A stretch of 64,000 bases of DNA, taken from positions 39,131 through 103,130 of IMG/VR virus record IMGVR_UViG_651053023_000001; one strand, written 5' to 3'. Position numbers: made by a program. Shown piece by piece: positions 21,001 through 24,000 of the stretch; the stretch's first letter is position 1, and every line of letters begins with the position of its first letter. The DNA comes from a virus (lineage: Duplodnaviria > Heunggongvirae > Uroviricota > Caudoviricetes).

Positions 21001-24000
21001 GCACACATCGCGATACACTTCTAAGCCAGACGTGGCGCGGCCTGCAACGATCAGGGATCTATATGGATCTAATTGGGATCTGTATGGACCTAATTATTGG
21101 ATCTACCCAGTGGATAATGTGGATAAGTGAAAAACCGGCCAACATAGCCGGTTGGAAGGAAGGGTATTATTCTACGCTTTCGATAAGAAGACCATGTTCA
21201 TAACATTTAAGCTCATCGCCTTCGTACAGGAATTGGTATCCAATACCACCATTTTCATGGACATTAGGGAATAACTCATAACTCACTGAAGAGCAAATCA
21301 CACCAATGCAACGCTCAACGCCTTCTCGTTCTTCAGTGCTGAAAAAATCCTCTTCGGTAAGAACATGAGTACATTGCTCATCAGCATAGGTCGGAAATAC
21401 ATGCTCGATGCAATCCGGGTGTTTTAAACCAAGCTGATCGGCAAGCTCGAAAGCATGACGGTATTGTTCAGATCCTGGCTTGCCAACAGTGATGTGCTCA
21501 ATTTTGTAGATTGAAGTCGCTTTGTTGATAGTTTGCTTTACTGTTACTTTATCAGACATAAAAATCCCTTTTAGTTACCGCTGATAGCGCGGTTGTAATC
21601 ATTAACGTTGCGATTCTTCCTGTTAATCCCCATCAGCATCGTTTCTGTATCGAGGATATACGCTGGCAGATCATCAAAATATTCACTGCTAAACTCTGGC
21701 ATCCTGCACATAAATGCACTTTTTGGGGCAGGGTGGTTAACCTTTGTCGGCGTCGGCGTTAAATTCGCTGATCGACTCCCGGAGCAACCGCTGAGTGTCA
21801 GCAGGAATACGCTGGCGAACATTACCCGCCGCAACAAGTTGTTTCTGAACTTCAGCTTTTCGTTCCATTTGCCTGTCAGCATACTTGGCTTGTTCTGATT
21901 CATTTTTCACTTCCTGGCTGTGAAAATGTTGCTCTGCTTTGTTCATCGTCTCAATGGTCTGGTTAAGATCCATTATTGACTTATCACGTTCCTTAACAGC
22001 CTGATCAAGACTGCCAATTTTCTCCATGGCTTGCTTTAGCTGATGACGTTCCCACGCAAACCCAGCACCAACAAGTGCGCAAATCAGAACAAGAACACCA
22101 GTAGCAGCAAGTTTCTCCTTCAAAGACAAAGCTGTTTTTAACGTAGAAAAGAATGACATGTCTTCCTCCTGAAGAAAAATTATCAATGAAGTCCTTTGTT
22201 ACCGTGCCGCTTTGTTTAATTCATCAAGAACAGAATCAGGAACCAAAGCGGCGACTGCGCTGGCTGTGCTGGCCTTATTTGCTGATGCTTCCGCAAGCGC
22301 GGTACCGATAGCATGGTTATAAGCAGTTATGGCTACGTTGGCGCTTTCATTCGCTCGTTCATACTGCTGTTGTAACGCAGTTGTGAGTGCTGTTGTCTGG
22401 TTGAAAACAACCCCAAACTGTTCAGTTGCTACTTTCAGAGATTCAATTTGCTCTTCTGTTAGTGCTGGTGGGGGAGTGGCAGTGCCGCCGCCTGAACCAG
22501 AGCCTGACGAGCTTCCTGAGCCAGTGTTAAGGGTCTGGTTAATCTCCCCCATAGCAGCGACTAAACTTGATCGATAGGAATTTAAATCCCCAAAAGACTA
22601 AAAAAGCACCACAAAACGGATGTTTCTTCAACACCCCTTGTGCACCATATGAGCGGAAACGACTATTAAACAGGATGACACTGATTGATACAGGGTATGA
22701 ATGGCGGTTTTTTGCTCCGTTTCCGGTAAAATGGACGCAACTTCCCCTCTGCGGCTCTCAGCCGCACACCTGCTGTCGTGCCAAGTCGCTCATGCATCAG
22801 GACCAGCTCTGCCAGTCGGTAACCCCGCTTCAGCCCCGTAAAACGCATCTGACTTCCGCACAGAATGCACTTCAGCGGGTCAACCTTCAGTAACCTCTGA
22901 TACATCCCTCTCCACCTGATTTGCATCGCCGTTTTTCTCACCGTCTCCGTTATGACGTACACAACTTCTTCCAGTAACCGGCGCTTCACCGGACTCAGGA
23001 AACCGTAGTACCTCACCATACGGAACCCCTTATCTGCTACATGCCAGGAGAACCTTTCCATGAACTCATCTCCACTCATCAACAGGTATTCTTCCCGTTT
23101 TGTACGGTGACTGTTGTAACGCAGACCGATTTCATCCTGACCGGCATAATGCTCCAGCCGACTCATCGGCACCGGTGGCTTTTTCAGGTAAGAGCCGAAG
23201 TACACCGCCACATGTGTGGCGTTATCCATCACCCTGGATATGTTGACATTCCAGCCGCGGCGGTAATGCGTGTCCAGGAAGCAATTCCAGTCCCGTTTGC
23301 TGTTTCCTTCCACTGCCAGTTCATCCGGTATCACCAGCTCCGGGTATTTCCGGGACAGTAGCCGCGTTATCCGGTAACGCCACATGCTCATCACCTTACG
23401 GGCGTAAAAATGAAGATTTTTCCAGGTGTGGCCCGACGTCACACCACCGGCAGTTGTCGATAAATGGATATGCGGATGCCACTGCTGGTCACGCCCCCAT
23501 GTGTGGATCACCGTGAATATCCCCGGCTCCACATCTGTCTGATGGCAGATTTCCAGTATCACATCCGCTGCAATGCGGCTCATCTCTGCCAGTAACCACC
23601 GGTTGTGGAACACCAGGGACCAGTACTGGCAGGGAAGTGTGAACACAATATGCTGCCACGGGCAGTCGGGGACCAGGCTCAGCAGATACTGTATCCACTG
23701 TGCGCCAGCCTTCACCCCGCAGTGCGGACAGGAGCGGCTTTTACACCGGAAGCAGACCTTTTTGGTGTGGCAACAGTCCGGTGACGAACAGCACCATTGC
23801 GTGTAGCCCATCAGCGTGGTCCCGCATGCCATGATTTTTGTCACTGACTCAGTCACCACCGGACGCACTGAACCTTCCGGCTGTTTCTCCAGCCAGTTAA
23901 GCCAGCGGTTACCCTGCTGAAAAATGTCGGCAAAACGGGGAAGCATCAGAAGGCGGGGGGACTCCGTCCGGCCAGTGAACCGTGCCACACTCCGGGCAGT

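What the first reader, a model, noticed from the sequence alone, without database searches (positions are those of the whole stretch)
21571..22186. Lipoprotein and membrane coiled-coil ORFs overlap by up to 167 nt in different frames
The lipoprotein ORF (lipobox LTLSGC) and the upstream membrane protein overlap substantially unless the lipoprotein starts at an internal Met; either an unusually long overlap or a mis-set start.
Basis: seen in the sequence. Interest (0 to 1): 0.2.

Follow-up and report, generated by a model that had tools for sequence, protein, structure and literature searches.

The report
Overlapping phage P1 spanin genes (ppfA/mlp)
This is the already catalogued pair of phage P1 genes ppfA and mlp, predicted to break the outer membrane at lysis; the lipoprotein gene really does start 167 bases inside the membrane-protein gene, which is normal for this gene class.

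Summary
On the minus strand, mlp (21571-21903, 110 aa, lipobox LTLSG|C) overlaps ppfA (21737-22159, 140 aa) by 167 nt in the +1 frame. The window is a P1-like phage-plasmid, and the reference P1 annotation carries the same overlap.

The overlap is not a mis-set start:
- The lipobox Cys codon lies 45 nt upstream of the ppfA stop, inside ppfA, so any start that keeps the signal peptide leaves at least 86 nt of overlap.
- Only Met65 or Met68, which delete the signal peptide, remove it.
- Met1 with its Shine-Dalgarno site, the +1 ORF, the lipobox and Ser+2 are kept in four clades, down to 34% PpfA identity.
- Random synonymous recoding of ppfA reproduces such a lipoprotein signal in only 0.2-0.4% of trials.

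The anatomy is that of a two-component spanin of the 'overlapped' class: a type II inner-membrane helical protein plus an outer-membrane lipoprotein gene in the +1 frame. PHROG profiles link the pair to P2 LysB/LysC, which overlap by 146 nt in the +1 frame. Kongari et al. 2018 already list P1 gp064/gp063 as overlapped spanins and flag the "too long signal sequence".

Spanin function in P1 has not been verified experimentally, and CRISPRi knockdowns scored both genes non-essential.

Verdict: already known, low interest. Automated annotation commonly truncates mlp to 43-52 aa.

The parts
21737..22159 (-). ppfA: predicted i-spanin, 140 aa. Type II inner-membrane protein: N-terminal cytoplasmic tail (net charge +2), one TMD, and a periplasmic helical domain of about 104 aa.
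   Evidence: ORF, ATG start; P1 ppfA 63520-63942; phrog_89 'Rz-like spanin', 1.2e-25; hydropathy; AF2: helix 13-110, break 111-119, helix 120-137.
22165..22170 (-). Shine-Dalgarno AGGAGG of ppfA, 5 nt before ATG 22159.
   Evidence: The same motif is listed for P1 gp064 in Kongari Table S1 and is conserved in the D6-like clade.
22055..22111 (-). Codons for the PpfA transmembrane segment (residues 17-35, LAATGVLVLICALVGAGFA).
   Evidence: maximum Kyte-Doolittle 19-residue window = 2.35.
21571..21903 (-). mlp: predicted o-spanin, 110-aa prolipoprotein. It has a 39-aa signal peptide and a 71-aa mature protein starting Cys-Ser-Gly. The mature N-terminus is Pro/Thr-rich and there is a single further Cys (Cys66).
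   Evidence: P1 mlp 63354-63686; phrog_30284 'Rz-like spanin', 2.6e-77; (LipoP cleavage at position 39, quoted from Kongari Table S1).
21910..21915 (-). Shine-Dalgarno-like AGGAAG of mlp, 6 nt before ATG 21903. It lies inside the ppfA codons for Q82-E83-V84.
   Evidence: It is present in 54 of 55 unique P1-clade sequences. The D6-like clade has AGGAGG (L095 has AGAGG) and L098 has AGGAAG.
21737..21903 (-). The 167-nt dual-coding segment: PpfA residues 86-140 (plus the ppfA stop codon) and Mlp residues 1-55, with mlp in the +1 frame.
   Evidence: frames; codon-position identities; recoding simulation.
21784..21903 (-). Mlp signal peptide (codons 1-39) plus the lipidated Cys40 codon (21784-21786). 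All of it lies inside ppfA.
   Evidence: Cys40 is invariant in alignment A3.
21167..21559 (-). upfA: co-oriented gene 11 nt downstream of mlp, function unknown. It is probably the last gene of the same transcription unit.
   Evidence: D6-like relatives carry a Gp49-family gene at this position instead.
21133..21153 (-). Terminator-like hairpin followed by a T-run after upfA, just before oriR.
   Evidence: 9-pair stem with 5 GC pairs, then TTTCACTTAT.
22199..22552 (-). Remnant 3' part of upfB (117-aa ORF), upstream of ppfA. It contains the positions of the sigma-70 promoters predicted in the P1 record (P1ppfA, P2ppfA).

Best explanation
The locus is the ppfA-mlp gene pair of a P1-like phage-plasmid. 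It is a two-component spanin of the 'overlapped' genetic architecture.

Shown from sequence:
- ppfA encodes a type II inner-membrane protein: one N-terminal TMD and a long alpha-helical periplasmic domain.
- mlp starts at its first ATG (21903), 167 nt before the ppfA stop and in the +1 frame. It uses a Shine-Dalgarno site embedded in ppfA codons.
- mlp encodes a prolipoprotein with lipobox LTLSG|C. Ser at +2 implies Lol-dependent sorting to the outer membrane.

Inferred from the established lambda Rz/Rz1 and P2 LysB/LysC paradigm:
- The two proteins bind through their periplasmic C-terminal parts and bridge the inner and outer membranes through the murein meshwork.
- When the P1 SAR-endolysin Lyz removes the murein late in infection, the complex collapses and fuses the two membranes. 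This destroys the outer membrane as the last step of lysis.

The overlap is therefore a genuine, selected dual-coding segment. It is neither an annotation error nor an anomaly.
For: 1. Identity. The pair shows 96-99% DNA identity to P1, P7 and SJ46 and the same gene order repA-upfA-mlp-ppfA-upfB. P1 annotates exactly the same 167-nt overlap.

2. Conservation.
- ppfA and mlp are both full-length or near full-length (ppfA 138-140 aa, mlp 108-118 aa) in 95 of 96 fetched loci; the one exception has ppfA truncated to 66 aa.
- Four clades keep the +1 ORF, an ATG at Met1 (shifted by one codon in the non-P1 clades) preceded by an SD-like purine motif (AGGAAG, AGGAGG or AGAGG), a 38-39-aa signal with a basic n-region, the lipobox, Ser+2 and Cys66. 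The clades are P1-like; D6-like at about 60% PpfA identity; L095; and L098 at 34% PpfA identity.
- Met8 and Met28 are not conserved outside the P1 clade.
- L098 has no other ATG upstream of the Cys.

3. Selection on the second frame.
- Synonymous recoding gives P = 0.002-0.004 per lineage.
- The mlp-only part shows the classic coding pattern of 82/91/52% identity at mlp codon positions 1/2/3. The ppfA-only part shows 65/71/45% at ppfA positions 1/2/3.
- In the overlap, mlp's wobble position rises to 84.5% (27/53 vs 47/54 for the L004 comparison, P = 6e-5).

4. Family link.
- PpfA hits phrog_89 at 1.2e-25 over residues 21-139. This is the family of P2 LysB (5.8e-61).
- Mlp hits phrog_456 at 2.8e-5. 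This is the family of P2 LysC (1.7e-31).
- P2 LysC reciprocally hits Mlp's phrog_30284 at 5.4e-4.
- P2 lysB/lysC overlap by 146 nt in the +1 frame.

5. Literature.
- Kongari et al. 2018 Table S1 lists P1 gp064/gp063 as 'ovl' i-/o-spanins with these same starts.
- PMC9025707 states that the P1 spanin genes ppfA and mlp partially overlap and sit in an unlinked operon.
- mlp and ppfA are among 21 extremely conserved genes in 77 P1-like phage-plasmids (PMC9603915).
Against: - Function is unproven. PMC9025707 says the P1 spanins were identified from predicted features only.
- CRISPRi knockdown of ppfA (EOP 1.3) and mlp (EOP 0.24) scored non-essential for P1vir plaque formation, whereas lambda Rz scored essential in the same study.
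- In all four clades the pair sits next to the plasmid replicon and never in a lysis cassette.
- Sequence similarity to validated spanins is only at profile level. NCBIfam LysB and LysC hits are far below cut-off (19 vs 92.75 bits; 14.7 vs 27 bits). hhalign of the shallow PpfA alignment against P2 LysB is not significant.
- The 39-aa signal peptide is atypically long; the spanin curators flagged it as 'Too long signal sequence'.
- PpfA has no periplasmic Cys, unlike lambda Rz.
- No convincing promoter was found upstream of ppfA by consensus scan.
Confidence: 0.8

Rival explanations
1. Mis-set start, mild form. Mlp is translated exclusively or additionally from an internal start: codon 24 (TTG at 21834) or Met28 (21822). 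This would give a canonical lipoprotein signal of about 13-17 aa, and the overlap would be 98 or 86 nt rather than 167 nt.
For: - A 39-aa signal peptide with a 26-aa n-region is unusual; Kongari Table S1 flags it as 'Too long signal sequence'.
- The codon 16 residues before the Cys is start-capable in all four clades: TTG in all 55 unique P1-clade sequences, ATG in the D6-like clade and L095, TTG in L098.
- Within the P1 clade, 16 of the 21 substitutions in the overlap are non-synonymous in mlp, as expected if part of this segment is weakly constrained or untranslated in that frame.
Against: - Met1 ATG is invariant in all unique sequences of all clades and is always preceded by an SD-like purine motif at 6-9 nt (AGGAAG, AGGAGG or AGAGG).
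- No SD-like sequence precedes codon 24 or Met28.
- Met28 is absent from the other clades.
- A Met28 start in P1 gives a 12-aa signal with no basic residue. A codon-23 start in L098 also lacks a basic n-region.
- The basic character of residues 1-26 is kept despite sequence divergence.
- Even if this rival is true, the overlap stays at 86 nt or more.
Confidence: 0.15
2. There is no real overlap. Only a short 43-52-aa product from Met65 or Met68 is made, as PGAP and other pipelines annotate, and the upstream +1 ORF is a chance open frame.
For: - Automated annotations call a 46-aa 'Rz1' in MH422554, a 43-aa hypothetical protein in NZ_CP122822, and 46-52 aa or nothing in the D6-like contigs.
- An open +1 frame alone is not improbable given the PpfA sequence (P = 0.43-0.79).
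Against: - The truncated product lacks any signal, yet the upstream part encodes an invariant lipobox Cys, a hydrophobic h-region and Ser+2 in four clades. Under synonymous recoding this has P = 0.002-0.004 per lineage.
- Gene callers are known to be biased against overlapped o-spanin genes: 196 o-spanins were unannotated and 64 had wrong starts among the spanin systems of the 677 phage genomes surveyed (PMC6139136).
Confidence: 0.03
3. The pair is not a lysis device. Mlp is an envelope lipoprotein expressed in the lysogen (for example exclusion or serum resistance, like lambda Bor or Cor) and PpfA is an unrelated membrane protein. The overlap then reflects only gene compaction.
For: - The locus adjoins the plasmid replication and partition module and is unlinked to lyz and lydA/lydB.
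- The P1 record predicts sigma-70 promoters, not late ones.
- CRISPRi knockdowns scored non-essential.
- There is no experimental verification.
Against: - A type II helical inner-membrane protein with a +1-frame outer-membrane lipoprotein gene overlapping its 3' end is the diagnostic spanin signature.
- Profile links connect both partners to the P2 LysB/LysC families.
- The Kongari survey lists no other spanin candidate for P1.
- The upstream genes of the same strand block include a PAAR-like gene (upfC), which is a virion-type late function.
- P2 lysB and lysC are also annotated as non-essential.
- Spanins are dispensable in shaken cultures.
Confidence: 0.1
4. A programmed +1 frameshift in the overlap yields a 195-aa PpfA-Mlp fusion protein.
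For: Databases contain 195-aa PpfA::Mlp fusion proteins (P0031, P0038, P0046, P0055, P0066).
Against: - The fusions have five different junctions.
- The two junction types examined (in four loci) are 1-nt deletions in A-runs (A5 to A4 at 21907; A3 to A2 at 21870), so they are mutations or homopolymer sequencing errors.
- None occurs among the 96 fetched loci.
- mlp has its own SD and ATG.
Confidence: 0.02

Closest known systems
Phage P1 ppfA (gp064) / mlp (gp063), listed as an 'overlapped' two-component spanin in Kongari et al. 2018 Table S1 (after Summer et al. 2007)
   Same: It is the same locus. Gene order, the 167-nt overlap, both starts and both SD sites are identical. The proteins are 99.3% and 99.1% identical to the P1 reference and 100% identical to those of SJ46, JL22 and MH422554.
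   Different: There are two substitutions against the P1 reference: PpfA I45M and Mlp W23L. In this window an IS91-family element interrupts upfB about 410 nt upstream of ppfA.
Phage P2 LysB / LysC (Rz/Rz1-like overlapped spanin pair; TIGR03495 and NF038368)
   Same: The architecture is the same. lysC starts in the +1 frame 146 nt before the lysB stop. The sizes are similar (141 and 96 aa). PpfA falls in LysB's PHROG (phrog_89, 1.2e-25), and Mlp and LysC cross-hit each other's PHROGs.
   Different: - Scores are far below the NCBIfam equivalog cut-offs, and hhalign is not significant.
- The P2 pair lies inside the lysis cassette after holin Y, endolysin K and lysA, whereas the P1 pair lies beside the plasmid replicon.
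- From the P2 LysB sequence quoted, LysB carries Cys residues near its C-terminus; PpfA has no periplasmic Cys.
Phage lambda Rz / Rz1 (prototype i-spanin / o-spanin)
   Same: The inferred mechanism is the same: a type II inner-membrane helical protein plus a Pro-rich outer-membrane lipoprotein, with the lipoprotein gene in the +1 frame of the inner-membrane protein gene.
   Different: - Rz1 is wholly embedded in Rz, whereas mlp extends 166 nt beyond ppfA.
- From general knowledge of lambda: the Rz1 signal peptide is about 19 aa, against 39 aa here; Rz has two periplasmic Cys that form intermolecular disulfides; and lambda's pair is the last gene of the late lysis cassette. PpfA has no periplasmic Cys.
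- No detectable direct sequence similarity was found here.
Unimolecular spanins (T1 gp11 type)
   Same: Both serve the same final-step outer-membrane disruption role.
   Different: A unimolecular spanin is a single polypeptide with an N-terminal lipobox and a C-terminal TMD. Here there are two separate proteins. The database 195-aa PpfA::Mlp fusions are frameshift artefacts or mutants with the opposite topology.

Membership tests
Two-component spanin (i-spanin + o-spanin), overlapped architecture | The i-spanin is a type II integral inner-membrane protein with a single N-terminal TMD (N-in) and a periplasmic C-terminal domain. | tested here: met
   There is one hydrophobic segment at residues 17-35 (Kyte-Doolittle 2.35). 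The N-tail has net charge +2. The remaining 104 residues are hydrophilic and 36% charged. Kongari Table S1 gives a TMD boundary at 36 and a 104-aa periplasmic domain.
Two-component spanin (i-spanin + o-spanin), overlapped architecture | The periplasmic domain of the i-spanin is predominantly alpha-helical or coiled-coil. | tested here: met
   The AF2 model shows helix 13-110, a break at 111-119 and helix 120-137, with mean pLDDT 70. No dedicated coiled-coil predictor was run.
Two-component spanin (i-spanin + o-spanin), overlapped architecture | The o-spanin is a small outer-membrane lipoprotein: SPII signal, lipobox Cys, and no inner-membrane retention residue (Asp) at +2. | tested here: met
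   Lipobox L-S-G-C with an 11-residue h-region of Kyte-Doolittle 2.5. The mature protein starts C-S-G and is 71 aa. Cys40 and Ser41 are invariant in four clades. LipoP cleavage at position 39 is quoted from Kongari Table S1. LipoP and SignalP were not run here.
Two-component spanin (i-spanin + o-spanin), overlapped architecture | The o-spanin gene starts inside the i-spanin gene in the +1 frame and extends beyond its stop. | tested here: met
   mlp starts at 21903, the ppfA stop is at 21737-21739 and the mlp stop is at 21571-21573. The frame offset is +1. The arrangement is conserved in 95 of 96 loci and in L098.
Two-component spanin (i-spanin + o-spanin), overlapped architecture | The genes are located in, or co-expressed late with, the holin-endolysin lysis cassette. 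| tested here: not met
   The pair lies between upfB and upfA/oriR/repA in every clade. PMC9025707 describes it as 'yet another unlinked operon'. Linkage is usual but not obligatory for spanins. Expression timing was not tested.
Two-component spanin (i-spanin + o-spanin), overlapped architecture | The two subunits interact physically across the periplasm and are required for outer-membrane disruption (spherical-cell phenotype when absent). | not testable with these tools
   No experimental data exist for P1. CRISPRi knockdowns scored non-essential for plaque formation.
P2 LysB family (TIGR03495, equivalog) | Whole-protein score at or above the curated cut-off of 92.75 bits. | tested here: not met
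   The score is 19 bits, E = 0.0013. The PHROG-level relationship exists (phrog_89, 1.2e-25). PpfA is therefore a distant relative, not an equivalog.
P2 LysC / Rz1-like family (NF038368, equivalog) | Whole-protein score at or above the curated cut-off of 27 bits. | tested here: not met
   The score is 14.7 bits, E = 0.025. There are reciprocal weak PHROG hits: Mlp to phrog_456 at 2.8e-5, and LysC to phrog_30284 at 5.4e-4.
P1 Mlp / PpfA orthologues (Punavirus) | Near-identity and conserved synteny with P1 gp063/gp064. | tested here: met
   DNA identity is 95.8-99.2%, protein identity to the P1 reference is 99.1% (Mlp) and 99.3% (PpfA), and the neighbours are the same.

The most novel reading that the evidence does not exclude
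The unusually long o-spanin signal peptide may be functional rather than incidental. It is 38-39 aa with a 22-26-aa strongly basic n-region, and is conserved in four clades. A start-capable codon (TTG or ATG) sits at position -16 from the lipobox Cys in all four clades. This could mean dual translational starts giving long and short Mlp precursors, or delayed export or processing that times spanin assembly, by analogy with holin/antiholin dual starts.

A related unexcluded reading concerns location. Because the pair always sits beside the plasmid replicon and knockdowns are tolerated, it may have a role in the lysogen envelope in addition to, or instead of, lysis.
Probability: 0.1. Interest if true: 0.4.

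Novelty: already known. Interest (0 to 1): 0.08.

Why it matters
Scientifically it matters little. The overlap is the textbook arrangement of a spanin gene pair, and this pair is already in the curated spanin catalogue.

Three practical points remain:
- The full-length mlp is routinely lost or truncated to a signal-less 43-52-aa ORF by automated pipelines, including RefSeq PGAP records of P1-like plasmids. Lipoprotein and lysis-gene content of phage-plasmids is therefore under-reported.
- Comparative evidence assembled here (conserved ATG plus SD in four clades) supports Met1 as the start. The spanin curators had flagged that start as giving a 'too long' signal.
- The P1 spanin assignment has still never been tested experimentally, and CRISPRi data hint that the pair is dispensable on plates.

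Tried and rejected
- Open-frame test. The probability that the +1 frame is open over the last 55 ppfA codons, given the PpfA protein, is 0.43-0.79. This is uninformative. It was replaced by the lipobox plus h-region test.
- hhalign of the PpfA alignment against P2 LysB gave probability 1%. The alignment is too shallow (Neff 1.6). The PHROG profiles gave the link instead.
- Pfam gave only sub-threshold coiled-coil noise and a weak LPAM_1 hit.
- PDB sequence searches with both alignments found nothing meaningful.
- No fold search was run, because the PpfA model is essentially one long helix.
- A full HMMER scan of 1.84 billion representatives with the PpfA profile gave only 35 hits. Of the three full-length distant relatives picked out, only P0102 could be placed on DNA (L098, again a P1-like phage-plasmid with the same synteny). 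P0107 and P0117 were not found in viral or metagenome contigs. No homologue inside a lysis cassette was therefore obtained, and guilt-by-association support for a lysis function is lacking.
- The genome-contig scan returned only three close relatives.
- A profile search with the Mlp alignment found no relatives outside P1-like elements.
- Lobocka 2004 and Summer 2007 are not held in the paper library. Their content is cited only through PMC9025707 and PMC6139136.
- The promoter scan found no convincing sigma-70 site upstream of ppfA on the minus strand.
- Programmed frameshifting was rejected.
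Full report
**Observation**

On the minus strand of the window, the ORF listing and direct reading show two ORFs.
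- The first is a 110-codon ORF at 21571-21903. It starts with ATG, ends with TAA, and has an in-frame stop one codon upstream of the ATG.
- The second ends at 21737 (TAA). Its ATG at 22159 is preceded by AGGAGG and gives the 140-aa protein annotated in P1.

The two share 21737-21903, which is 167 nt, and the downstream gene is in the +1 frame relative to the upstream one.

The 110-aa product has a hydrophobic core (VMFASVFLLTL) followed by L-S-G-C, with Cys40 at 21784-21786. The 140-aa product has one hydrophobic segment (residues 17-35) and then about 104 charged residues. AlphaFold models these as helix 13-110, a break at 111-119 and helix 120-137, with mean pLDDT 70.

**Identity of the locus**

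The window is a P1-like phage-plasmid. The stretch 21150-22600 is 95.8-99.2% identical to P1, P7, SJ46, RCS47 and relatives. The reference P1 record annotates mlp at 63354-63686 and ppfA at 63520-63942, which is the same 167-nt overlap. The neighbours are also the same: repA/oriR, upfA, mlp, ppfA, upfB. The window proteins are 100% identical to those of SJ46, JL22 and MH422554, and differ from the P1 reference by one residue each.

**Can a different start remove the overlap? No.**

The Cys40 codon lies 45 nt upstream of the ppfA stop. The candidate starts give the following overlaps:

| Start | Overlap with ppfA |
|---|---|
| Met1 | 167 nt |
| Met8 | 146 nt |
| TTG24 | 98 nt |
| Met28 | 86 nt |
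| Met65 / Met68 | none, but the whole signal peptide is discarded |

The Met65/Met68 type of call is what several pipelines produce. MH422554 has a 46-aa 'Rz1', a RefSeq plasmid has a 43-aa hypothetical protein, and Logan/ENA gene calls give 46-52 aa or nothing. In the protein database the full-length Mlp cluster has 43 members, against 834 + 274 for the two largest PpfA clusters. This is the known gene-caller bias against overlapped o-spanin genes (PMC6139136).

**Which start is used?**

I fetched 96 loci in total: P1, P7 and MH422554, four D6-like contigs, 3 genome loci, 85 IMG/VR loci and the window. Later I added a more distant one, L098.
- ppfA and mlp are both full-length or near full-length (ppfA 138-140 aa, mlp 108-118 aa) in 95 of the 96; the one exception has ppfA truncated to 66 aa. 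In 84 of them the sizes are exactly 140 aa, 110 aa and 167 nt.
- In all 55 unique P1-clade sequences Met1 is ATG, and in 54 of them it is preceded by CCAGGAAGTG.
- In the D6-like clade (PpfA about 60% identical), the first ATG of the +1 ORF sits one codon further downstream. It is preceded by AGGAGG (D6-like) at 9 nt. L095, a third clade, has AGAGG at the same place.
- In L098 (PpfA 34% identical, Mlp about 49%) the +1 ORF overlaps by 179 nt. It starts with an ATG preceded by AGGAAG and has no other ATG before the Cys.
- Met8 and Met28 are confined to the P1 clade.

Met1 is therefore the best-supported start.

One loose end remains. The codon 16 residues before the Cys is TTG (P1 clade, L098) or ATG (D6-like, L095) in all four clades. 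An additional internal start giving a canonical short signal peptide therefore cannot be excluded. No SD precedes it, and in L098 it would leave no basic n-region. The spanin curators flagged the same issue, noting 'Too long signal sequence' with LipoP cleavage at position 39.

**Is the second frame selected?**

Identity was compared between the window and eight divergent relatives, by codon position:

| Region | Identity by position |
|---|---|
| ppfA-only | 65 / 71 / 45% at ppfA positions 1/2/3 |
| mlp-only | 82 / 91 / 52% at mlp positions 1/2/3 |
| Overlap | 84.5 / 80 / 61% at ppfA positions 1/2/3 |

- Both single-coding regions show the classic coding pattern.
- In the overlap, mlp's wobble position is ppfA position 1, and there it is strongly protected (27/53 vs 47/54 for the L004 comparison, Fisher P = 6e-5).
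- ppfA's wobble position in the overlap is moderately protected (39/85 vs 35/54 for the same comparison, P = 0.04).
- Overall nucleotide identity rises from about 60% in the ppfA-only part to about 77% in the overlap for the two D6-like pairs tested (L005, L004). For L095 it is 60% against 64%.
- In the overlap the PpfA frame dominates for those same two pairs: PpfA C-terminus 75-76% amino-acid identity against 49-51% for the Mlp signal region. This fits a sequence-tolerant signal peptide. In L095 both are low (44% and 38%).
- Within the P1 clade the polymorphisms agree: 12 are synonymous in ppfA and non-synonymous in mlp, 5 are the reverse, and 4 are non-synonymous in both.

A simple open-frame test is not significant (P = 0.43-0.79). 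However, random synonymous recoding of each lineage's ppfA gives an open +1 frame with a lipobox and a hydrophobic h-region in only 0.2-0.4% of 20,000 trials, and all four lineages tested have it. The Cys arises from xTG-Cxx across two PpfA codons (TTG-CTC, CTG-CTC or ATG-CTC).

**What it is**

The anatomy is the diagnostic signature of a two-component spanin of the overlapped class:
- a type II helical inner-membrane protein;
- a small lipoprotein with Ser at +2 and a Pro/Thr-rich mature N-terminus;
- a lipoprotein gene that starts in the +1 frame inside the 3' end of the first gene and runs beyond it.

PHROG profiles support this.
- PpfA hits phrog_89 'Rz-like spanin' at 1.2e-25 over residues 21-139. 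Mlp hits phrog_30284 'Rz-like spanin' at 2.6e-77 and phrog_456 at 2.8e-5.
- P2 LysB is a phrog_89 member (5.8e-61) and P2 LysC a phrog_456 member (1.7e-31). LysC reciprocally hits phrog_30284 at 5.4e-4.
- P2 lysB/lysC overlap by 146 nt in the +1 frame.

The relation is distant. NCBIfam LysB and LysC hits are well below cut-off, and hhalign against a single LysB sequence is not significant.

**What is already known**

- Kongari et al. 2018 list P1 gp064/gp063 as an 'ovl' i-/o-spanin pair with exactly these starts and SD sites. They report overlapped as the commonest architecture (228 of 528 systems), with overlaps of 70-155 bp in other families.
- Bednarek et al. 2022 state that the P1 spanin genes ppfA and mlp partially overlap and lie in a separate operon, were identified from predicted features (citing Summer et al. 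2007), and have not been verified experimentally. Their text swaps the i- and o- labels.
- A CRISPRi survey scored both genes non-essential for P1vir plaque formation: ppfA EOP 1.3 and mlp EOP 0.24, against lyz at 0.05.
- mlp and ppfA are among the 21 most conserved genes in 77 P1-like phage-plasmids.

**Mechanism**

The following steps are inferred from the lambda and P2 paradigm, not shown for P1. PpfA anchors in the inner membrane and Mlp in the inner leaflet of the outer membrane. Their periplasmic parts bind through the murein meshwork. Once the endolysin removes the murein, the complex undergoes a collapsing conformational change that fuses the two membranes and releases the progeny.

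Mlp's invariant Cys66 could form a homodimer disulfide, as lambda Rz1 does. PpfA has no periplasmic Cys.

Several points count against the inference or remain untested:
- the pair is always beside the plasmid replicon and never in a lysis cassette, in all four clades;
- knockdowns are tolerated;
- no distant homologue in a lysis cassette could be recovered;
- no clear promoter was found.

**Rivals**

- An internal start is possible, at about 0.15, but it would still leave at least 86 nt of overlap.
- A short signal-less product, as annotated by PGAP, is effectively excluded by the conservation and the recoding statistics.
- A non-lysis envelope role is not excluded, at about 0.1.
- Programmed frameshifting is rejected. 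The 195-aa PpfA::Mlp fusions in the databases have five different junctions. The two junction types examined are 1-nt deletions in A-runs. None occurs in the 96 loci.

**Verdict**

The overlap is not unusual once the pair is recognised as a spanin. The feature is already known and catalogued, and interest is low.

Noticed in passing
window 22568-24393 (transposase ORF 22666-24039, minus strand): An IS91-family element of 1826 bp is inserted in upfB at P1 coordinate about 64348-64350. It leaves a 117-aa C-terminal upfB ORF (22199-22552) next to ppfA, and the P1 backbone resumes at 24394. The same insertion is present in plasmid NZ_CP122822. It separates ppfA-mlp from anything transcribed from upstream of upfB. 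The transposase gene is co-oriented with ppfA, so read-through is conceivable.
   Followed up: partly
window 21907 (A5 run) and 21870 (A3 run); loci L099-L102: Public databases hold 195-aa PpfA::Mlp fusion proteins with at least five different junctions. The two junction types examined are single-A deletions in homopolymer runs inside the overlap. They are either real frameshift mutants or homopolymer sequencing errors.
   Followed up: yes
window 21571-21711; MH422554 (L002 1923-2063); NZ_CP122822 (L096 2211-2342); L004-L007: Automated annotation (PGAP, Prodigal-type callers) systematically truncates mlp to a 43-52-aa signal-less ORF, or omits it, to avoid the overlap. Some records label ppfA 'endopeptidase Rz' or 'outer membrane lytic protein'. 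These are outdated or incorrect names for an inner-membrane spanin subunit.
   Followed up: yes
window 21834-21836 (mlp codon 24, TTG): The codon 16 residues upstream of the lipobox Cys is start-capable in all four clades: TTG in the P1 clade and L098, ATG in the D6-like clade and L095. Starting there would give a canonical 16-17-aa lipoprotein signal peptide. No SD precedes it. A possible secondary start remains unresolved.
   Followed up: partly
window 21910-21915, within ppfA codons Q82-E83-V84: The mlp ribosome-binding site is built from the codons of PpfA's invariant Q82 and E83 (K85 just downstream is also invariant). Part of that amino-acid conservation in PpfA may therefore reflect the embedded SD rather than protein function.
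   Followed up: no
window 21167-21559 (upfA); L004-L007 about 3600-3960; L098 6753-7226; protein P0004: The gene after mlp is not conserved. P1-like elements carry upfA, whereas D6-like relatives and L098 carry a Gp49/Sf6-gp66-family gene (PF13876) at that position. An E. albertii protein (P0004) is a chimera of Mlp residues 1-77 with the Gp49-family C-terminus. This points to a recombination hotspot at the 3' end of mlp.
   Followed up: no
window 21133-21153 (minus strand): A strong terminator-like hairpin (9-pair stem followed by a T-run) lies just after upfA and immediately before oriR. It probably insulates the plasmid origin from the ppfA-mlp-upfA transcript.
   Followed up: no
PMC9025707, Introduction: [quoted passage not shown] PpfA has the TMD and the helical domain, and Mlp has the lipobox.
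   Followed up: yes
L008 (JAFAFU010000017.1, labelled 'MAG: Bacillota bacterium'): A 5.9-kb contig binned into a Bacillota MAG carries a ppfA 100% identical to the window's. This is almost certainly a mis-binned P1-like (enterobacterial) contig.
   Followed up: no
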